64,000 nt of DNA, from sequence record NC_028881.1, one strand, 5' to 3'. This document shows positions 22,489 through 30,834 of this stretch, piece by piece (the stretch's first letter is position 1; every line of letters starts with the position of its first letter). This DNA comes from Escherichia phage vb_EcoM-VR5. Both the position numbers and the translations under genes were made by a program. Below the pieces are notes generated by a model. The model was not told the DNA's origin and searched no databases. It worked only from the letters and a program-made list of their open reading frames with translations.

Positions 22489-23382
22489 TTAAAGGACCAC
22501 GTCCTCATAACGTGGCATTTCGTACTCGGAATGAATATGGGCACCAAAATAAATGAATTCAGCCAAACCAGGATGGAATACTAAACCCGGGTTCTCATGA
22601 TAAATGATATGTGGTCTTGATTTCAGAATCTGGTAATATTCAACCTTACTCGGTTTGAATTTAATAATCTCTACATCAGGACGATAGTCTCCACGTTTAA
22701 ATGAATCGTTGGGGTCGGTGATATAGAGTCGAGCACCTTCAGCCGCAGCTCGGTCTACAACTCGTTCGAATTGATAGCATTTATCAGAGATACGAAATGG
22801 GTGAAAAATACCATCAATTTTAATAGGCGCTAGACCATCAGAGTAACGCTCAATTACTGCCGGATTAATTACCTTTTGGTCTACAAAAATCTTATCAGAG
22901 GATGCACCTCGTGACACCAGGACGTCTTTCTGGCATTGATTCAGGACTGTAGTATAAATCGAACGTTCGACTGAAGAAACATCAATATCAATAAACTCGT
23001 CGATATAATAACGAGGAACTTCAGGGTCCATTGTGATATTAAAGTTGAATTGTACAGTCTGGGCACCATCATAACCTGTGATATCAGTTACCAACCCTGA
23101 GCAGTCGTAGTATTCGATTAATGAATCGACTACGAACTCGTTTTCAGACCAGAAATGTTTACGGGTTTCATAAGCATTTTCTTTATACCAAAGTGGCACA
23201 AAATTCAGTTCAGGGAATAACTCGATGCACTGATTGATATCGCTCGAATTTCTAGGATAAGCCAGATAATCACCTGGCCGAGCACGGTTTAAATGGAGTT
23301 GAAAATTGCCGTCCTTAAGGACAGCATATTCACCCGTTTCGTAACTACGCATACTGAAAATAGGAACGATAAACAGACTCAT
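22489..23382 (-). CDS. unknown protein occupying the T4 beta-glucosyltransferase slot; candidate DNA-sugar transferase
   Basis: 297-aa ORF; no resemblance to recalled T4 beta-gt; ATGA-coupled to hydroxymethylase gene. Confidence 0.7.
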   Translation of the reverse strand: MSLFIVPIFSMRSYETGEYAVLKDGNFQLHLNRARPGDYLAYPRNSSDINQCIELFPELNFVPLWYKENAYETRKHFWSENEFVVDSLIEYYDCSGLVTDITGYDGAQTVQFNFNITMDPEVPRYYIDEFIDIDVSSVERSIYTTVLNQCQKDVLVSRGASSDKIFVDQKVINPAVIERYSDGLAPIKIDGIFHPFRISDKCYQFERVVDRAAAEGARLYITDPNDSFKRGDYRPDVEIIKFKPSKVEYYQILKSRPHIIYHENPGLVFHPGLAEFIYFGAHIHSEYEMPRYEDVVL

Positions 23383-24077
23383 TTCAGAAAACCTCGGACG
23401 TAGTCAAAATCACGTTCAAATACGTGTGCACTAACCATGGTGTGAGAATACGTACCCAAACCAACACCACACTGCTCTGCAATAAAGGCCATCAGTTTAC
23501 CCTGCAGATAGAAATCAAGCTGCATAACAACGGCACAGTTCTGTGAACGCATATGGGTATGTGCATACAAACGACCGTCACGAATGTAATACGTCACCGA
23601 ATCAGTACAAGGATATTCTAGGGATTCGTCAGAATCAAGGAGAGCTTGGTCTTGTTCTTGGAGAATCTGGAACACAACTCTTCGCGAGTTAGGCTTTTCT
23701 TTAAGCTCTTTAAGTAGGGCTGGGAGCTGGGCCACAATTCGAGGTCCATAGAAAGTGTTGAAGTTTGCAGGCAATACGTCACTTTTCGGCTTATCAATGA
23801 ACTTAGCAACATTAGGGTATTCCTTAAATGCTTCGGAGGCATCAGTACCACCGGAAATCATAAACTTCCAAAAGGATTCAGCGTATTCATAACTAATACG
23901 ATTGATGCGTGGGTCGGTGAACTTGAACGTGCTAGCATCAAGAACTTCTACTGAAGCCGAACCGACTTCATAACAACGGCCGATACGAGAATCTACTGCA
24001 AACTGCGGAGCTTCAAGGATTTCTTCGTTCATTTGTTTAAATGCATTTTCAAAACTAACAGCGGTAATGTGTTTCAT
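23379..24077 (-). CDS. 42: deoxycytidylate hydroxymethylase-like enzyme (thymidylate synthase fold)
   Basis: 232-aa ORF; PNSRR, PCTD nucleophile and Asp 31 residues after Cys align with T4 gp42 NPDSRR, MCTNT, D179; overall divergent. Confidence 0.7.
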   Translation of the reverse strand: MKHITAVSFENAFKQMNEEILEAPQFAVDSRIGRCYEVGSASVEVLDASTFKFTDPRINRISYEYAESFWKFMISGGTDASEAFKEYPNVAKFIDKPKSDVLPANFNTFYGPRIVAQLPALLKELKEKPNSRRVVFQILQEQDQALLDSDESLEYPCTDSVTYYIRDGRLYAHTHMRSQNCAVVMQLDFYLQGKLMAFIAEQCGVGLGTYSHTMVSAHVFERDFDYVRGFLK

Positions 24078-24610
24078 TTATTCACCTTATTTTCAATATA
24101 TTCATTCAGACGTTTTAATTCTACCATATCAACATTAAGCAAATTATTATGGCCGTCATGATTTAAGATTTTAAACACGTTTTCAAAACATGTTTCGTAT
24201 TGTCTGACAGTTAGGTTGAACTCATCTTTAGTTAATTTAATAAGGTCGTCTTCGAAGTCTTCGTCTAACGGATTACGAGTTAAAATAACCTCGATAATGT
24301 TAAATTCAGATTTGAACCCTTTCCAATCTTCCAGTTCTACATAAGGGTCCATTTCACCACGAAGGAATCCCGAGTAAACAATATTACTAGGATACCCACG
24401 GTCTAAGATATAGACAAAATTTGGGTCTAAAAACTTATACAGAGTTTCAACTAGAGCCTTATCATTATCAGTTCCTAATGAAATACATTTGCCATTAATC
24501 TTTTTAGGAAAATCAATAAGGCGGTATTTCTTATCGGATAACAGATTTTTAATTAAAGTAGACTTCCCGGAATTATCCGGGCCGTCTATAACAATGATTT
24601 TTGGATTCAT
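24074..24610 (-). CDS. P-loop nucleotide kinase, thymidylate-kinase-like
   Basis: 178-aa ORF; Walker A IVIDGPDNSGKST; DRGY-type motif YILDRGYPSNIVYSG. Confidence 0.7.
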   Translation of the reverse strand: MNPKIIVIDGPDNSGKSTLIKNLLSDKKYRLIDFPKKINGKCISLGTDNDKALVETLYKFLDPNFVYILDRGYPSNIVYSGFLRGEMDPYVELEDWKGFKSEFNIIEVILTRNPLDEDFEDDLIKLTKDEFNLTVRQYETCFENVFKILNHDGHNNLLNVDMVELKRLNEYIENKVNK

Positions 24611-24990
24611 GGATGATAGGCCTTATAACTATCAAGAGTTCCTTCACGAACCATTTCTTTAAAGTGGTCGGGCCGGATTGCTCGGTCATCGATGATAAAA
24701 GTATAACTCGGCTTGTGTGTAAGCAAATTGTGATATTTCAATCCAATTTTTTCAAGGTTCTTAACCAATGCCGGAACTACTTCAACCAATATTCGGCCAG
24801 GGCCACATGAAGTCATACCACGGGCGGTGAACAATGTAATCTCACACCCTTCATCATAAAGCTTGTTAATCATGGACACCATTTCAGTGTCCGGTTTAAA
24901 GTTTTCATAATCACGGTCATGATTCCAAATCGTGATTGTGTTATCGATATCAAAACATAAATGCGGCTTATTTTCTACTCGATGCGACAT
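24607..24990 (-). CDS. HAD-superfamily phosphatase
   Basis: motif I CFDIDNTIT, motif II TLFTAR, motif IV FIIDDRA; start set at ATG overlapping upstream stop (TAATG). Confidence 0.65.
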   Translation of the reverse strand: MSHRVENKPHLCFDIDNTITIWNHDRDYENFKPDTEMVSMINKLYDEGCEITLFTARGMTSCGPGRILVEVVPALVKNLEKIGLKYHNLLTHKPSYTFIIDDRAIRPDHFKEMVREGTLDSYKAYHP

Positions 24991-26663
24991 TAAATTTTCT
25001 TCCATTGTTTGTGGAGTTCAGTAGAACCTGTAGGTTTATATTTTACACCAGTTTCCTGGTCAAGCAAAACCCACTTATCAGGACAACGAGTAATAATTTG
25101 TGCCGTAATAGGGTCACGAACTTCATCAACGAATTCACCTGTAATAAGCTTACGCTTACGAGGGTGCCGCTTCAGCAGCACACTCAGTTGGTACAAACCG
25201 TTGTAATATGCGCCAAGAGCTTTCAGAGGATTATTCTTAAAGTAACCTGCTAGCGCCATCCAAATAACAGCAATCCAGAGCTTGTGCTTAAATGTACACA
25301 TCGGAATATCGTCTAAAGGCATGACCTTTTCAATATCAACGAATACACGAGTTCCATTACGGGTTAAGCCACCCCATAGAGGGTCTGAGTTAAATTTATC
25401 ATAGCCATCGATAGAATAAAGCACCTTAGCTTCGTCATAAATCGCGGGGCCTTTAGAACTATTACCGAAATAACCACGTGGGTCGATGATTTTAATATCA
25501 CCTTCGTCCGACAGCATAATATTACTGTAGTGCGGGTCGCCATGAATAAGTTGATACGGTTCTTTATGTTCAGACAGAATTTCTAGTGCATGACGAAGAA
25601 GTTTTTCAGGGTCTCCTACCTTGAAGTCGTTAACATGGGTGATGCCCTGTGGAGAAAAGCCTTCAATCAATCCAGCAATAGAAGCATTACGAATCAGGAC
25701 CTTGTCCAATACTTCTTTCTTAACATCAGAATACCATTGCTCATCAGATGGGTTATCGATAGTTCCACCAAATGAACGTAATGCACTAATGACCTTATAA
25801 ACCATGAGCACTTTAGTTTCTTTAGACATAAACCGGTAGGCATCTGCCATGGTGCGACCAAAGATACGTTCCATTTTAATGAATTCACCTGGCGCAAAGT
25901 CTACAATGCTCGGAACGAATTCAGAATCAATAGAATTATACCAATTGATTTCTTTAGATTGAATTTCTTTACCTAATTCGTTGGTTGGTACTTTAATAGC
26001 CAGATTCTCAGTGAATTCTAATTTATTAAATTCACGATTAATTTCAGAATCTTCATGGGCCTTGGCCAGCTTCAGTTTATCACCAACATCAACTACAAAG
26101 TCCAGCTTACGTTCAGACAAATAAACCATTGAATCCAGGTTATCCGCAAGGTCTTCACCATAATTAGAACGGTCGAATCCTGTCCAATTCGCCACCTGAT
26201 ACAAACCAACTACACCGCCACCTGTACCAATTTCACGTAAGTACGGTTCTTCAAATGTAAACCGACAATCGGTCCCATAGGTATAACAGTAGTCGTTATC
26301 CCACTCAACTTTATGGCCTTCAGGAATTATGTCACACCAGTTAAATAGAACGTTATGCCCAATAATATCTTCAGCAATGCAATCGATAGCATGGGCCGAA
26401 CCGTTAGCAACATCCACATTACGAATAGTGAACTTGGGCTTATCGCCTGTAATCATATTAATCGATTTAATATAGCCTTTAACGAGGTCGTTAAATTTAC
26501 TGTGAATAACCAGAATAATTTCATCTGATTGGTTACTATACAAATCATACAAATGCTTTAATACCGTATGTTGTTTATAGTTAACCAATACCTTAGGGAT
26601 TTCATTAGTAATTGGATACAACCGTGAGCCAAGACCTGCGCCTAAAATAACAACCTTTTTCAT
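24990..26663 (-). CDS. bifunctional sugar-phosphate nucleotidyltransferase / APH-ChoK-like kinase
   Basis: N-terminal GAGLGSRLYPIT (NTP-transferase signature); C-terminal HGDPHYSNIML and IIDPRG (Brenner-type kinase motifs); RBS GAGGAA before ATG 26663. Confidence 0.75.
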   Translation of the reverse strand: MKKVVILGAGLGSRLYPITNEIPKVLVNYKQHTVLKHLYDLYSNQSDEIILVIHSKFNDLVKGYIKSINMITGDKPKFTIRNVDVANGSAHAIDCIAEDIIGHNVLFNWCDIIPEGHKVEWDNDYCYTYGTDCRFTFEEPYLREIGTGGGVVGLYQVANWTGFDRSNYGEDLADNLDSMVYLSERKLDFVVDVGDKLKLAKAHEDSEINREFNKLEFTENLAIKVPTNELGKEIQSKEINWYNSIDSEFVPSIVDFAPGEFIKMERIFGRTMADAYRFMSKETKVLMVYKVISALRSFGGTIDNPSDEQWYSDVKKEVLDKVLIRNASIAGLIEGFSPQGITHVNDFKVGDPEKLLRHALEILSEHKEPYQLIHGDPHYSNIMLSDEGDIKIIDPRGYFGNSSKGPAIYDEAKVLYSIDGYDKFNSDPLWGGLTRNGTRVFVDIEKVMPLDDIPMCTFKHKLWIAVIWMALAGYFKNNPLKALGAYYNGLYQLSVLLKRHPRKRKLITGEFVDEVRDPITAQIITRCPDKWVLLDQETGVKYKPTGSTELHKQWKKI

Positions 26664-26723
26664 TATCTGTTCCTCAAGTGAATGTAGGTACATTATACAC
26701 TATTTTTAATAAATTTCTATTGC

Positions 26724-27224
26724 TTAAATCTTATCTTTACCGTATTCCATGCATTGTTCTACTGCAGCGGGCACTTTGGTCTTAAGCTTATTGATTTGTT
26801 TCTTATAATCACGGGCCTTATCAAAGCTTTCGGTTTCTAGCATTTCGTAATAACGAGCTTCATGGATAGAAACCTGCAGATTGATATGGTTTACACACAT
26901 AGCATACAGTTTCTGCTTTTTGTACAAATCATCTTGTCGCTTCATTTCTGCCTGGTGTTTGGCTAGTACCGCTTCTCGCTTAGACTCTTGTTCACGTTGG
27001 AATTCTATTTCACGAGCCGCATATTTACCGCAGTTATTTCCGCATTGGTTGTTAGCACGAGTATAAGTAATGCCTGAACCTGCACGGAACTTAACTTCAC
27101 CATCATACTGCTTCTGTTCAGCAGCAATACGAGCTTTACCTACTTCATCAGCCGTAACAACTTCACCGTATTGGACCGCACAACCAGAGAGTAATAATGA
27201 CGCTGCGATAATTAGCTTTTTCAT
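26724..27224 (-). CDS. putative lipoprotein (166 aa)
   Basis: signal peptide with lipobox LLSGC. Confidence 0.6.
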   Translation of the reverse strand: MKKLIIAASLLLSGCAVQYGEVVTADEVGKARIAAEQKQYDGEVKFRAGSGITYTRANNQCGNNCGKYAAREIEFQREQESKREAVLAKHQAEMKRQDDLYKKQKLYAMCVNHINLQVSIHEARYYEMLETESFDKARDYKKQINKLKTKVPAAVEQCMEYGKDKI

Positions 27225-27671: not shown

Positions 27672-30383
27672 TTAAAAGTCGAACATGTCAAATAACGTTG
27701 CTTTTTTCTCGTAGTCGATTTTAGCAGACTCAGTAAAACCGGTCAGAGGTTTGATAAAGGTCTTTTGGAACAATACGTTGTAGTCCATCCAACGGAGAAC
27801 TTGGTCGCGAATCTGAACTGGAAGCTCAATACCTGACGGCCAGGCCATACAAGCTTCACCAAACGGGTTACCTTCTTTAAGTGGCAGTACATATACCTTT
27901 TCACCATCAACGATACGAGGCATAGTCAAATCACCTGCAGATGCACGCATGTAAGCTAAGCAACCTTTGATGTGGTATGGACATTTAGAACCAGGGAACC
28001 CGCCTTCATTATATTTCTCAATGTTGTTAGCACTTGATACTGCAGCAATGCTTACATAGTCCAGTTCGTTGAATTCTTTATTAAACTGTTTGAAATATTC
28101 TTGCAAAGAAGCCTCGCCTTCTTGAAGCATACGACGGATACATTCTTTCAGAGCTTTCTGAACAGCTTTAGGTGTACTTGATTTCTGGGTTTCGAGACCC
28201 ATGATTTTCAAGTGAGGTTCGGCATAACGGGTGCCTTCCATGTCCCAAACGTTCAGTGCATAACGTTTCTTACCAGTCCAGAATCCACCAAGACCTTTAG
28301 AACCGAGTGGTGGGCCTGCGATAGCTTCTCGGTCCATGAACATCAAGTGTTCTTTATTATTAAGGTATTCAGCTAATTCGCGGAAGGCCTTATCTATAGC
28401 AGGTTCCATACGTTCAGATGCAAACTTACTTAAGAAGTCGACCCAATGGTTGGTATCACGGAATTTATCTTCACCTACTTTATCGATGATTGCATCAGCT
28501 TTAACATAGATGGAGTCCGTATCTCCATAGAGCACGAATTTCTGGTTTTCAGTCTTACACACTCTATTCAGATATTCGTTAACCTTACGTTCAATCCATT
28601 GGAGGGCCATTTGACCAAACAATGTGATTGCTGTAGCGTTACGCAAGTCATAGTAACGGAACCATACGTTACCAAGTGCACCATAAAGGGAGTTGATAAG
28701 CAACTTACGGTTAATCTGAGCGGTGTTACCTGCTACTTCAGTACGTTCGGCTTTGAACAACATTTCTCTTAAAGAAGGCGCTGACAACGATTTAATCTGA
28801 GATTTGATTTCTTCAGAGAAGTCAAATCGATAGTCGATATCCAGTGGACTATCAACAGACAGATTAGGATTTTCTAATGCTTCTTTAATTAACTCACCGT
28901 TACGTTGGGCTGCAAGCATATAACCTTTATGTTCTTTACGTTGTAAGAACACCTTCGTGATTTCTGTAGGAATCACACCATCGCGGTCTTTAAAATACAT
29001 CATGCCGTTAGGAGAGCAACTGTAGGTATCGCTAGGACGCGGAGCAGTTCCGGCAATATATTCATGTATCGGCGCATTAGCGAATGTCCCTGCGATGGTC
29101 TCTGGGCTAATATTCACTTGTCGAATGATACTCGGGTATAGAGATGTAAGGTCGAAACTCATTACATATTTGTAGGCATTAGGAATCGGTTCCTTAACGA
29201 AAGCACCAGGATAAGGTTGAACCATATGCGACCTAGCCTGAGGAATTACCTTACCCTGTTCTTTAAGACTGTTAAAAATGATAGCGTCCCAAGTCTTAAT
29301 AGGGCTGAACACCGACTGAATCTGCATCTTGGCATAGTAACCCATGTCTAGACTCAGAAGAATGAACTGGCGCTTCATATCAATCTGCACAACACGATAT
29401 ACGTCGATAATGTTATAGGAAATATATCGTTGGTGGTTAGTCTCACGTAATTTAGAGATCGGACCATCGTATTTCAACTTACCTACTTTCAATTCATATT
29501 CAGAAACATAATCCAGAGAATAAGATGGTTGGTTGGTAAAGCTGAATTTTTTATAAAGGTCGATATAGTCCAGAACCGAGATACCGAACAGTGTAATGAT
29601 TTCACGAGCACCATACATGTTCTCGATAACTTTAACACGAGTCTTACGATGTGGGCTTAATCGCTTAGCGGTGTTCTCACCAAACAGATTTTTCAGACGG
29701 TTATAAACGTACGGCACGTCAAATGATTCAACGTTCCAACCAGTCAAAATCACAGGAGTTTTCTGTTGCCAGAAGTTTAGGTATTCAAGCATCATTTCTT
29801 CTTCAGAATTAAACGGAAGATAAACGATTTTGTCAATGATTTCCTGTGGAACTTCGTCGCCGCCTTCGTCTTGGAGTTTCTCAGCGATTTTAATCGACCA
29901 CTCTTCGACCGTACCATAAGGTGAAACTAAAAGGTCAAATACATAGAATTTATCGTCAATCGAGTCGTAGTGAGTAATGGCATCGATAGGATGTTTAGCC
30001 TGGGCTGGTTCAGGGAATCCGTCAGGAGATGTTACCTCGATGTCGAAGTTAGCAATACGAATCTTAGAAGAATCATACTTGATTTCTTTACGATAGGTAT
30101 CAGACAAATATGCTAATTTATAGTCGTCCATACCAAGGGCTTCAAGTCCCATATCGTCCATGCGCTTCATCCACTGGGATGCATCCCGCATAGAATTAAA
30201 TTCTTTCTTAATACAACCTTTACCGTAGATGTCAATATATTTTACGGCTTGTTCTGGGTTGGCATGCATAAACATCGTAGGCTTGTAAGGAACTTCACGA
30301 CTACGTTCTTTGCCATTTTTATCGATGTATCGTTCGAGAATATTATCACCGATTTGTTCGACTGTCAAATAGAATTCTTGCAT
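27672..30383 (-). CDS. 43: DNA polymerase (family B, gp43)
   Basis: start at MQEFYLTVEQIG (track ORF has N-terminal extension); exo motif FDIEV, pol motif YGDTDS; strongly resembles RB69 gp43 from memory. Confidence 0.92.
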   Translation of the reverse strand: MQEFYLTVEQIGDNILERYIDKNGKERSREVPYKPTMFMHANPEQAVKYIDIYGKGCIKKEFNSMRDASQWMKRMDDMGLEALGMDDYKLAYLSDTYRKEIKYDSSKIRIANFDIEVTSPDGFPEPAQAKHPIDAITHYDSIDDKFYVFDLLVSPYGTVEEWSIKIAEKLQDEGGDEVPQEIIDKIVYLPFNSEEEMMLEYLNFWQQKTPVILTGWNVESFDVPYVYNRLKNLFGENTAKRLSPHRKTRVKVIENMYGAREIITLFGISVLDYIDLYKKFSFTNQPSYSLDYVSEYELKVGKLKYDGPISKLRETNHQRYISYNIIDVYRVVQIDMKRQFILLSLDMGYYAKMQIQSVFSPIKTWDAIIFNSLKEQGKVIPQARSHMVQPYPGAFVKEPIPNAYKYVMSFDLTSLYPSIIRQVNISPETIAGTFANAPIHEYIAGTAPRPSDTYSCSPNGMMYFKDRDGVIPTEITKVFLQRKEHKGYMLAAQRNGELIKEALENPNLSVDSPLDIDYRFDFSEEIKSQIKSLSAPSLREMLFKAERTEVAGNTAQINRKLLINSLYGALGNVWFRYYDLRNATAITLFGQMALQWIERKVNEYLNRVCKTENQKFVLYGDTDSIYVKADAIIDKVGEDKFRDTNHWVDFLSKFASERMEPAIDKAFRELAEYLNNKEHLMFMDREAIAGPPLGSKGLGGFWTGKKRYALNVWDMEGTRYAEPHLKIMGLETQKSSTPKAVQKALKECIRRMLQEGEASLQEYFKQFNKEFNELDYVSIAAVSSANNIEKYNEGGFPGSKCPYHIKGCLAYMRASAGDLTMPRIVDGEKVYVLPLKEGNPFGEACMAWPSGIELPVQIRDQVLRWMDYNVLFQKTFIKPLTGFTESAKIDYEKKATLFDMFDF

Positions 30384-30440
30384 TTCATTTCCTTTATAGA
30401 CGAGTGATTGTCTTTTGTTTGTTGGTGAATCATTATACTC

Positions 30441-30461
30441 CAAAAAGGGACCGAAGTCCCT
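30441..30461 (-). terminator. terminator-like hairpin between regA and gene 43
   Basis: gggac-ttcg-gtccc + TTTTT, followed by TATAAT. Confidence 0.45.
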
Positions 30462-30471
30462 TTGCTTTATC

Positions 30472-30834
30472 TCAATTACCAATCGTATATTTGGACAACA
30501 ATTCCCAGTCATTTTTCTGTTTAAAGGAAATGACACGGAAGTTATTAGTGATTTCAAACAATTCAGAATCGTCTACAATATCAATAAGTCCCCAATCCTT
30601 AAGAAGCTGGGCGATAGAATCGCGACGTTGGTAGTCTTCACCATCTATATCTACCTGGCGACCATCCATACGCAACATCTCTTTAAAGTGGACAATATAA
30701 TACCGTCCTTGCTTTTGCAAAATGTGACAGGATTGATATAGTTTCTTTTCTTTATTATTAGCGATACCCATACGAGTTAGGGTCTCTTTCACTTTCAAGA
30801 AGTCTTCAGGTTGCTTCAGAGTAATTTCAATCAT
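30472..30834 (-). CDS. regA: translational repressor RegA
   Basis: 120-aa ORF; near-identical to my recollection of T4 RegA (MIEITLK...NNFRVISFKQK). Confidence 0.9.
   Translation of the reverse strand: MIEITLKQPEDFLKVKETLTRMGIANNKEKKLYQSCHILQKQGRYYIVHFKEMLRMDGRQVDIDGEDYQRRDSIAQLLKDWGLIDIVDDSELFEITNNFRVISFKQKNDWELLSKYTIGN

What the first reader, a model, noticed from the sequence alone, without database searches (positions are those of the whole stretch)
24990..26663. Bifunctional nucleotidyltransferase / APH-fold kinase fusion in a phage replication-gene cluster
A single 557-aa ORF joins an N-terminal G-x-G-x-R-L-x-P-x-T nucleotidyltransferase domain to a C-terminal kinase with Brenner-type HGDxxxxN and IIDxxG motifs. 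This arrangement resembles two-step kinase-plus-pyrophosphorylase activation pathways (for example MurNAc salvage or choline activation) and is unexpected between genes 42 and 43 of a T-even phage.
Basis: seen in the sequence. Interest (0 to 1): 0.7.

Follow-up and report, generated by a model that had tools for sequence, protein, structure and literature searches.

The report
Phage UDP-arabinose-making enzyme (AfhE homolog)
This gene encodes a two-domain enzyme that most likely makes the activated sugar (UDP-arabinose) a T4-like phage attaches to its DNA cytosines to escape bacterial defences; the enzyme family and pathway were already described in related phages, so the finding is correct but not new.

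Summary
A 557-codon minus-strand gene (24990-26663) fuses an N-terminal sugar-1-phosphate nucleotidyltransferase to a C-terminal APH/choline-kinase-fold kinase. Pfam hits, invariant catalytic residues and a confident AlphaFold model all support this.

The window is a Dhakavirus (JS98/JS10 group), and the gene is JS98 gp042, annotated 'RB69 orf052c-like'. It aligns end to end, at 43% identity, with AfhE of coliphage HY126. AfhE is reported to be a bifunctional D-arabinose-5-phosphate 1-kinase and UDP-arabinose pyrophosphorylase.

The neighbouring genes match the rest of the published pathway for arabinosyl-5-hydroxycytosine DNA:
- a HAD phosphatase (AfhF, 62% identity to HY126);
- a nucleotide kinase;
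- the 297-aa DNA arabinosyltransferase (66%).

The gene is not out of place, because it sits in the DNA-modification island.

The family is already published (Thomas 2018; He 2026 and Mahler 2025, both known here only as cited by Lee 2026; Lee 2026), and Dhakaviruses are named there as carriers of the 5-hydroxycytosine pathway.

One small residual point: Dhakaviruses lack the phage arabinose-5-phosphate isomerase and the second transferase. This suggests they depend on the host for arabinose 5-phosphate and add a single arabinose. Neither inference was tested.

The parts
24990..26663 (-). AfhE-like bifunctional gene (557 aa): sugar-phosphate kinase plus NDP-sugar pyrophosphorylase
   Evidence: ORF. 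Pfam NTP_transferase and APH. 43% identity over the full length to HY126 XAN60479. AF2 model with pLDDT 91.4. Fold matches.
26049..26663 (-). N-terminal nucleotidyltransferase domain (about aa 1-205). The GxGxR signature at aa 10-19 corresponds to nt 26607-26636.
   Evidence: Pfam PF00483. Foldseek matches to RmlA, MurU 4y7t (TMt 0.66), HddC 5xhw and IPCT 2xme. Invariant G10, R14, K24, D111, D192 and D195 in 35 homologs.
25164..26036 (-). C-terminal APH/choline-kinase-fold kinase domain (about aa 210-500). HGDPHYSN corresponds to nt 25521-25544 and IIDPRG to nt 25473-25490.
   Evidence: Pfam PF01636. Foldseek matches to APH(2'') 3tdv and 3ham and to choline/ethanolamine kinase 3dxq. Invariant K224, E238, H374, G375, D376, N381 and D394.
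24993..25163 (-). Conserved C-terminal tail (aa 501-557), with short strands and lower model confidence. Its role is unknown.
   Evidence: Block pLDDT of 71-88. Aligned with HY126 through to the last residue.
26664..26719 (-). Upstream region with a GAGGA ribosome-binding site and a TAGAAA-16-TATAAT promoter-like site
   Evidence: Sequence. Consensus scan scores 10 of 12, but such sites are no more frequent here than in shuffled sequence.
24607..24990 (-). AfhF-like HAD phosphatase. It probably starts at ATG 24990, which overlaps the AfhE stop as TAATG; an alternative ATG lies at 25005.
   Evidence: 62% identity to HY126 XAN60478. E 2e-53 to PDB 9iqw. Overlap read directly from the sequence. 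HY126 has the same 1-nt overlap.
24074..24610 (-). P-loop nucleotide kinase (RB69 gp45-like), presumed to be the 5-hydroxy-dCMP kinase
   Evidence: 36% identity to HY126 XAN60473. JS98 annotation 'RB69 orf045c-like'. Thymidylate-kinase fold reported for RB69 gp45.
23379..24077 (-).
   Evidence: E 6e-127 and about 83% identity to PDB 9iqu/9iqc/9ir2, which are the HY126 protein. The MRSQNCAVVMQLDF segment, which contains the diagnostic Asp169-to-Asn position, is identical to HY126.
22489..23382 (-). 297-aa first DNA arabinosyltransferase (homolog of RB69 gp46:47)
   Evidence: 66% identity to HY126 XAN60474. Found in 349 phage records whose tallies by organism name closely match those of the AfhE-like gene. 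Role proposed in PMC13326640.

Best explanation
The gene encodes a Dhakavirus ortholog of AfhE, the enzyme that supplies the sugar donor for arabinosyl-5-hydroxycytosine DNA. The proposed pathway has three steps. First, the C-terminal APH-fold kinase phosphorylates D-arabinose 5-phosphate at C1, giving arabinofuranose 1,5-bisphosphate. Second, the HAD phosphatase encoded by the next gene, whose start codon overlaps the AfhE stop codon, removes the 5-phosphate. Third, the N-terminal MurU/RmlA-like domain condenses arabinofuranose 1-phosphate with UTP to give UDP-arabinofuranose. The adjacent 297-aa glycosyltransferase then transfers arabinose onto 5-hydroxycytosine in phage DNA. That base is made as 5-hydroxy-dCMP by the neighbouring thymidylate-synthase homolog and phosphorylated by the neighbouring P-loop kinase. 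What is shown here: the domain folds, the conserved catalytic residues, full-length homology to AfhE, and one-to-one correspondence of the neighbouring genes. What is inferred by homology: the substrate (arabinose 5-phosphate), the nucleotide (UTP) and the order of steps. Because this phage has no arabinose-5-phosphate isomerase, the arabinose 5-phosphate would have to come from the host (KdsD or GutQ); this too is an inference.
For: Fold and motifs:
- Pfam NTP_transferase and APH both score above their curated cut-offs.
- The AF2 model has pLDDT 91.4 and pTM 0.87.
- Foldseek against the PDB returns two families only: sugar-1-phosphate nucleotidyltransferases (MurU, RmlA, HddC) and APH(2'')/choline kinases.
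- The invariant residues are the expected catalytic ones: GxGxR, K24, D111 and D192/D195 in the N half; K224, E238, HGD, N381 and D394 in the C half.

Homology to characterised or studied members:
- 43% identity across all 557 residues to HY126 XAN60479 and 41-44% to RB69 gp52/gp53.
[quoted passage not shown] 2026, as cited in PMC13326640).

Gene context:
- HAD phosphatase 62%, glycosyltransferase 66%, hydroxylase about 83% and nucleotide kinase 36% identical to the HY126 cluster genes.
- Two of these neighbours match solved structures of HY126 proteins. The hydroxylase matches 9iqu, shown to be the HY126 protein. The phosphatase matches 9iqw, whose sequence agrees with the HY126 gene.
- The AfhE stop and AfhF start overlap as TAATG, and HY126 has the same overlap.

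Independent support from gene fusions and co-occurrence:
- Metagenomic proteins of 922-946 aa fuse HAD, SIS isomerase and nucleotidyltransferase domains, plus a region homologous to this protein's kinase half, in one chain. One of them lies beside several glycosyltransferase genes.
- The 297-aa transferase is found in nearly the same phage groups as the AfhE-like gene.

Literature:
- Dhakaviruses are named among the genera for which conserved 5-hydroxycytosine synthesis is inferred from synteny (PMC13326640).
- The Thanatos homolog TH1_060 (44% identical) is essential for phage propagation (PMC12838424).
Against: - Identity to the only biochemically characterised member is 43%, low enough that sugar or nucleotide specificity could differ.
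- The primary biochemical paper (He et al. 2026, Nat Chem Biol) is not held in the library. I know its results only through the citing paper.
- None of my searches found chemical analysis of Dhakavirus DNA.
- The phage lacks the arabinose-5-phosphate isomerase present in RB69, HY126 and DLP3.
- Purified Thanatos TH1_060 made no NDP-xylose from xylose-1-phosphate with any of five NTPs. This fits strict arabinofuranose specificity but gives no positive support.
Confidence: 0.8

Rival explanations
1. Same enzyme and same product, but a different order of steps. The HAD phosphatase first removes the phosphate from arabinose 5-phosphate to give free arabinose. The kinase domain then phosphorylates free arabinose at C1, and the N-terminal domain makes UDP-arabinose.
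For: This is the scheme written in Table 1 of PMC13326640 for RB69 gp51 and gp52:53 and for DLP3 gp81 and gp82. Anomeric kinases of free sugars with the APH fold are known (AmgK and NahK; from my own knowledge). APH-type and choline kinases are the fold matches found here.
Against: The text of the same paper adopts the bisphosphate route on the basis of the HY126 biochemistry. The HAD protein's structural matches include heptose-1,7-bisphosphate 7-phosphatase, which fits a bisphosphate substrate.
Confidence: 0.08
2. The Dhakavirus enzyme activates a different sugar, or uses a different nucleotide carrier, than the Mosigvirus enzyme. The DNA of this phage group would then carry a 5-hydroxycytosine glycoside other than arabinose.
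For: AfhE is one of the two most diverged cluster genes relative to HY126 (43%, against 62-83% for the phosphatase, transferase and hydroxylase; the nucleotide kinase is at 36%). The cluster lacks the arabinose-5-phosphate isomerase and RB69 gp50. Other sugars on 5-hydroxycytosine exist, for example in RL38J1.
Against: The transferase that must accept the donor is 66% identical to the HY126 one, and the phosphatase that handles the intermediate is 62% identical. E. coli makes arabinose 5-phosphate itself for Kdo synthesis (established knowledge), so a phage isomerase is dispensable. The family is about 42-47% identical across genera that were all reported to carry arabinosyl-5-hydroxycytosine, such as Serratia phage 92A1 (47% to this protein) and RB69.
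Confidence: 0.08
3. The enzyme is a LicA/LicC-like or AmgK/MurU-like pathway (choline or MurNAc activation) that acts on the host envelope and has nothing to do with DNA.
For: LicC (1jyk) is the best sequence match in the PDB for the N terminus (E 0.001). MurU and a choline/ethanolamine kinase appear among the fold matches.
Against: Those matches are at 11-20% identity and show only a shared fold. The gene is embedded in, and co-inherited with, a DNA-modification cluster whose members match characterised HY126 and RB69 proteins at 36-83%.
Confidence: 0.01
4. The long ORF is an assembly or sequencing artefact that joins two separate genes.
For: The RB69 GenBank record shows two ORFs, 052c and 053c.
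Against: The RB69 split was shown to be a one-base sequencing error. 365 of 366 phage records encode the full-length protein. HY126 and JS98 annotate a single CDS. The model folds as one confident chain.
Confidence: 0.005

Closest known systems
AfhE of Escherichia phage HY126 (XAN60479), equivalent to RB69 gp52:53 (ORF53_52c) and DLP3 gp82
   Same: Same two-domain architecture and nearly the same length (557 against 562 aa). Alignable end to end at 43% identity. Same catalytic motifs. Same downstream partner, the AfhF phosphatase, with the same 1-nt stop/start overlap. Same genomic island between uvsX and gene 43.
   Different: Only 43% identical. The Dhakavirus cluster lacks the phage arabinose-5-phosphate isomerase, the gp49 and gp50 genes and the gp3-type second transferase. 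The nucleotide-kinase gene sits at a different place in the cluster.
ADP-heptose pathway: GmhA (SIS isomerase), HldE (bifunctional kinase/adenylyltransferase) and GmhB (HAD phosphatase)
   Same: The pathway logic is the same: ketose phosphate to aldose phosphate, then a 1-kinase, then removal of the distal phosphate by a HAD enzyme, then nucleotidyl transfer, with kinase and transferase fused in one protein. This comparison rests on established knowledge. The phosphatase's structural match to heptose-1,7-bisphosphate 7-phosphatase is reported, and HddC appears among my fold matches.
   Different: The folds differ. The HldE kinase is ribokinase-like and its transferase is cytidylyltransferase-like (from my own knowledge), whereas here the kinase has the APH/protein-kinase-like fold and the transferase the RmlA/MurU fold. 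The domain order is also reversed.
AmgK/MurU (MurNAc salvage) and LicA/LicC (choline activation)
   Same: The fold pairing is the same: an APH/choline-kinase-type kinase with a minimal RmlA-like nucleotidyltransferase. The kinase-then-pyrophosphorylase logic is also the same.
   Different: In those systems the two activities are separate proteins, the pathway has two steps with no intervening phosphatase, the substrates are different, and sequence identity is only 11-20%.
T4 beta-glucosyltransferase and gene 42 module
   Same: It occupies the same genomic slot (uvsX to gene 43) and has the same biological purpose, glycosylating a modified cytosine in phage DNA.
   Different: T4 uses UDP-glucose supplied by the host and needs no sugar-activation enzyme. 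It makes 5-hydroxymethyl-dCMP with a folate-dependent enzyme. The homolog here matches the flavin-bearing 5-hydroxy-dCMP synthase instead.

Membership tests
AfhE family (phage bifunctional arabinose-5-phosphate 1-kinase / UDP-arabinose pyrophosphorylase) | Full-length sequence homology to a characterised member (HY126 AfhE) | tested here: met
   BLASTP gives 43% identity over aa 1-557 against 1-562, E 2e-144. tblastn against RB69 gp53 and gp52 gives 44% and 41%.
AfhE family (phage bifunctional arabinose-5-phosphate 1-kinase / UDP-arabinose pyrophosphorylase) | N-terminal sugar-1-phosphate nucleotidyltransferase fold with an intact GxGxR(L) loop and metal-binding aspartates | tested here: met
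   PF00483 scores 33.9 bits against a cut-off of 21.2. Fold matches to MurU, RmlA and HddC. G10, R14, K24, D111, D192 and D195 are invariant in 35 homologs.
AfhE family (phage bifunctional arabinose-5-phosphate 1-kinase / UDP-arabinose pyrophosphorylase) | C-terminal APH/protein-kinase-like fold with an HGDxxxxN catalytic loop and a DxG-type metal-binding Asp | tested here: met
   PF01636 scores 25.2 bits against a cut-off of 23.2. Fold matches to 3tdv, 3ham and 3dxq. K224, E238, H374, G375, D376, N381 and D394 are invariant.
AfhE family (phage bifunctional arabinose-5-phosphate 1-kinase / UDP-arabinose pyrophosphorylase) | Genomic association with the AfhF-type HAD phosphatase, the 5-hydroxy-dCMP synthase and the DNA arabinosyltransferase | tested here: met
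   All three are adjacent in the window and are 62%, about 83% and 66% identical to the HY126 proteins. Co-occurrence across phage records holds.
AfhE family (phage bifunctional arabinose-5-phosphate 1-kinase / UDP-arabinose pyrophosphorylase) | Enzymatic activities: ATP-dependent C1 phosphorylation of D-arabinose 5-phosphate, and UTP plus arabinofuranose 1-phosphate giving UDP-arabinofuranose | not testable with these tools
   Biochemistry is reported only for HY126 (He et al. 2026, via PMC13326640), and the primary paper is not held.
AfhE family (phage bifunctional arabinose-5-phosphate 1-kinase / UDP-arabinose pyrophosphorylase) | Phage-encoded arabinose-5-phosphate isomerase that supplies the substrate (present in RB69, HY126 and DLP3) | tested here: not met
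   tblastn finds no homolog of RB69 gp55 in the window (best E 1.7). The tallies by organism name indicate that no Dhakavirus record carries one. This is an accessory feature of the pathway, not of the enzyme, and host KdsD or GutQ can supply arabinose 5-phosphate (inference).
Arabinosyl-5-hydroxycytosine DNA-modification system | Thymidylate-synthase homolog carrying the 5-hydroxy-dCMP-synthase signature (Asn at the E. coli ThyA Asp169 position) | tested here: met
   The segment HMRSQNCAVVMQLDF is identical to that of the HY126 enzyme in PDB 9iqu. An ungapped register places N180 at ThyA D169 and D188 at N177, whereas the gapped pairwise alignment is ambiguous. The signature is defined in PMC13326640.
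Arabinosyl-5-hydroxycytosine DNA-modification system | Arabinosylated 5-hydroxy-dC actually present in virion DNA | not testable with these tools
   The literature searches found no chemical analysis of any Dhakavirus.
AmgK/MurU or LicA/LicC two-enzyme activation systems | Orthology-level sequence similarity and a matching substrate context (cell-wall recycling or choline decoration genes nearby) | tested here: not met
   Similarity is at fold level only, 11-20% identity, and the neighbouring genes are DNA-modification genes.

The most novel reading that the evidence does not exclude
The Dhakavirus enzyme is 43% identical to HY126 AfhE and sits in a pared-down cluster with no phage arabinose-5-phosphate isomerase, no gp50 and only one transferase. 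It might therefore have a different sugar or nucleotide specificity, so that JS98-type phages would carry a 5-hydroxycytosine glycoside that has not yet been described, rather than arabinose.
Probability: 0.08. Interest if true: 0.5.

Novelty: already known. Interest (0 to 1): 0.15.

Why it matters
The enzyme makes the donor sugar for a cytosine hypermodification that protects T4-like phage DNA from restriction enzymes and CRISPR-Cas and makes it a target for type IV restriction systems. This is relevant to phage therapy, phage engineering and sequencing of such phages. The enzyme family, its pathway and its occurrence across Straboviridae have already been published (2018, 2025, 2026). This window therefore adds only a confirmation in a Dhakavirus. 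It also adds one modest testable point: this genus seems to run a minimal version of the pathway, with host-supplied arabinose 5-phosphate and a single transferase, which predicts mono-arabinosylated DNA.

Tried and rejected
- Looked for a solved AfhE structure by sequence. None is in the PDB copy (best E 0.001, to LicC), although the HY126 hydroxylase and HAD phosphatase are there.
- Tried to read He et al. 2026 and Mahler et al. 2025 directly. Neither is held, so their results are cited second-hand.
- Tried to run a local tblastn with RB69 loci fetched by accession. Those loci were not exported to the scripting machine, so I pasted translated sequences instead.
- The 297-aa transferase has no Pfam hit and no sequence match in the PDB. 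Its assignment rests on homology to RB69 gp46:47 and the HY126 gene.
- The promoter and terminator scan gave nothing above the shuffled expectation.
I relied instead on the segment being identical to the HY126 enzyme.
- Searched for experimental data on JS98 or Dhakavirus DNA chemistry and found none.
- Rejected the fusion-artefact, choline and MurNAc readings (see the rival explanations).
Full report

Yes. The minus strand carries one uninterrupted ORF. It runs 24990-26693 from the first ATG (567 aa) or 24990-26663 from MKKVVILGAG (557 aa).

The 26663 start is the likely true one:
- A GAGGA ribosome-binding site lies 8 nt upstream, and the upstream ATG is embedded in a TATAATG -10-like element.
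- The orthologous JS98 CDS is annotated from the same codon.

Pfam places NTP_transferase at aa 13-110 (33.9 bits, cut-off 21.2) and APH at aa 357-427 (25.2 bits, cut-off 23.2).

**2. What phage is this, and which gene?**

At the DNA level the gene is 93-96.5% identical to about 50 Dhakavirus genomes, including JS98, JS10, IME08 and ESCO10. It is JS98 gp042, annotated 'hypothetical protein, RB69 orf052c-like'.

On the minus strand the local gene order is:
- gene 43 (DNA polymerase), then imm, then a 166-aa lipoprotein;
- this gene;
- a 132-aa HAD protein;
- a 178-aa P-loop kinase;
- a 232-aa thymidylate-synthase homolog;
- a 297-aa protein;
- uvsX, gene 40 and gene 41.

**3. Fold and catalytic residues**

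An alignment of 35 homologs, 30-81% identical to the query, has these invariant residues:
- G10, R14, K24, D111, D192 and D195 in the N half;
- K224, E238, H374, G375, D376, N381 and D394 in the C half.

These are the nucleotidyltransferase signature loop and metal ligands, and the kinase ATP-binding lysine/glutamate pair, catalytic loop and metal-binding aspartate.

AlphaFold2 run on that alignment gives a confident model (mean pLDDT 91.4, pTM 0.87). Foldseek against the PDB returns two families:
- sugar-1-phosphate nucleotidyltransferases, including RmlA, MurU 4y7t (TMt 0.66), HddC 5xhw and IPCT 2xme;
- APH(2'') 3tdv and 3ham, and choline/ethanolamine kinase 3dxq (TMt 0.51-0.56).

The fusion is genuine. 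Of 366 phage records with a homolog, 365 cover at least 80% of the protein in a single piece. The split RB69 ORFs 052c and 053c were traced to a one-base sequencing error (PMC6024577).

**4. What is it? Evidence from the literature**

- Thomas et al. 2018 proposed RB69 ORF53_52c as a candidate for UDP-arabinose synthesis.
- Lee et al. 2026 (PMC13326640) showed that RB69 and DLP3 DNA carry mono- and poly-arabinosylated 5-hydroxycytosine, and that the thymidylate-synthase homolog makes 5-hydroxy-dCMP. They modelled gp52:53 as a MurU-like N domain plus an APH-like C domain.
- Lee et al. report, citing He et al. [quoted passage not shown] AfhF, a HAD phosphatase, converts arabinofuranose 1,5-bisphosphate into the 1-phosphate between the two AfhE steps.
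- They list Dhakaviruses among the genera for which conserved 5-hydroxycytosine synthesis is inferred from synteny.
- In Shewanella phage Thanatos, the homolog TH1_060 (44% identical to this protein) is essential for phage propagation (PMC12838424).

**5. Linking the window to the characterised system**

I identified HY126 as PP658200.1 by searching the phage collection with the sequence of PDB entry 9iqu, which gave a 100% match.

Identity of each window protein to its HY126 counterpart:

| Window protein | Identity to HY126 |
|---|---|
| AfhE homolog (full length, E 2e-144) | 43% |
| HAD phosphatase (also E 2e-53 to PDB 9iqw) | 62% |
| 297-aa transferase | 66% |
| P-loop kinase | 36% |
| Thymidylate-synthase homolog (E 6e-127 to 9iqu) | about 83% |

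The thymidylate-synthase homolog scores only E 5e-6 against T4 gp42 (1b49). Its segment containing the diagnostic Asp169-to-Asn position is identical to the HY126 enzyme.

The AfhE stop codon overlaps the phosphatase start codon as TAATG, and HY126 has the same 1-nt overlap. This arrangement suggests translational coupling, but that was not tested.

**6. Independent support from fusions and co-occurrence**

Metagenomic proteins of 922-946 aa (P0069, P0078, P0094) combine HAD, SIS-isomerase and nucleotidyltransferase domains with a region homologous to this protein's kinase half, all in one chain. That amounts to every step from ribulose 5-phosphate to the NDP-sugar. One of these proteins lies next to several glycosyltransferase genes.

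The 297-aa protein is found in 349 phage records. Its tallies by organism name match those of the AfhE-like gene: Escherichia 175 and 175, Acinetobacter 57 and 57, Shigella 15 and 15, Proteus 7 and 7, Klebsiella 26 and 25.

**7. Most likely mechanism**

- Arabinose 5-phosphate is phosphorylated at C1 by the C-terminal kinase domain.
- The 5-phosphate is removed by the HAD phosphatase encoded downstream.
- The N-terminal domain then adds UMP from UTP to give UDP-arabinofuranose.
- The 297-aa transferase puts arabinose on 5-hydroxycytosine in DNA.

The folds, catalytic residues, homology and gene context are shown here. The substrate, the nucleotide and the order of steps are inferred from the HY126 work, which I could read only second-hand. 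The logic mirrors the ADP-heptose pathway (GmhA, HldE, GmhB), but with different folds.

**8. How this cluster differs from the described ones**

The window has no homolog of the RB69 arabinose-5-phosphate isomerase gp55, of gp50, or of the second transferase gp3.

Across the phage collection:
- the isomerase is found in 276 records;
- gp3 is found in 212 records;
- the AfhE-like gene is found in 366 records.

The Escherichia tally is 137 for the isomerase and 137 for gp3, against 175 for the AfhE-like gene. The difference of 38 equals the number of Escherichia records among the near-identical (Dhakavirus-type) DNA matches to this gene. The 'Enterobacteria' tallies also fit for both genes (8 minus 5 is 3). 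The Shigella tally fits for the isomerase (15 minus 1 is 14), while gp3 has 13.

So Dhakaviruses as a group appear to lack both genes. This is an inference from counts, not a genome-by-genome check. It suggests reliance on host KdsD or GutQ for arabinose 5-phosphate, and a single arabinose per cytosine. I found no chemical data on Dhakavirus DNA.

**9. Verdict**

The gene is a member of a published, biochemically characterised family, in a genus already listed as carrying the pathway. The finding is ordinary, and its interest is low. A small residual possibility, about 8%, is that the diverged Dhakavirus enzyme activates a different sugar.

Noticed in passing
window 26724-27224 (-): A 166-aa ORF with a lipoprotein signal (MKKLIIAASLLLSGC) occupies the slot between the AfhE-like gene and imm, roughly where RB69 and HY126 carry the arabinose-5-phosphate isomerase next to gene 43. 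It is JS98 orf43, has no significant Pfam hit, and its function is unknown.
   Followed up: no
window 22489-27224, compared with L002 (RB69) and L004 (HY126): The Dhakavirus modification cluster is a reduced version. It has no arabinose-5-phosphate isomerase, no gp49 or gp50, and no gp3-type second transferase. The tallies by organism name suggest this holds for all Dhakavirus records, and that the Klebsiella (Marfa-like) and Proteus relatives also lack the isomerase and the gp3-type transferase. This predicts dependence on host arabinose 5-phosphate and mono-arabinosylation.
   Followed up: partly
window 22489-26663 compared with L004: Divergence from HY126 is very uneven across the cluster: hydroxylase about 83%, transferase 66%, phosphatase 62%, AfhE 43%, nucleotide kinase 36%. 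The kinase gene also sits at a different position, between the phosphatase and the hydroxylase here but next to uvsX in RB69 and HY126. This may reflect modular exchange or different constraints.
   Followed up: no
P0069, P0078, P0094; L005 8001-10775: Metagenomic proteins of 922-946 aa fuse HAD, SIS and nucleotidyltransferase domains with a region homologous to this protein's kinase half. One lies beside GT11, GT2, GT25 and GT1-type glycosyltransferase genes. This suggests a cellular NDP-pentose pathway for glycan synthesis from which the phage genes may derive.
   Followed up: partly
It is a close homolog (E 6e-127) of the HY126 5-hydroxy-dCMP synthase, whose structures are PDB 9iqu, 9iqc and 9ir2.
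   Followed up: yes
window 24988-24992 (-): The stop codon of the AfhE-like gene overlaps the start codon of the HAD phosphatase as TAATG, and HY126 has the same overlap. The mechanical ORF list instead starts the HAD ORF at an upstream in-frame ATG (25005).
   Followed up: partly
window 27672-30557 (-): The mechanical ORF for the DNA polymerase (gene 43) begins at a TTG and is 961 aa long, but the JS98 gp43 CDS spans 2712 nt (about 903 aa). The real start is probably the ATG of MQEFYLTVEQ, about 58 codons downstream.
   Followed up: no
literature: PMC12838424 (Shewanella phage Thanatos): That paper assigns UDP-xylose pyrophosphorylase activity to TH1_063, a 300-aa protein that by its size and numbering probably lies next to the thymidylate-synthase homolog TH1_062. 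It found no activity for the AfhE homolog TH1_060 on xylose-1-phosphate. This sits awkwardly with the AfhE model and may need re-examination using arabinofuranose substrates.
   Followed up: no
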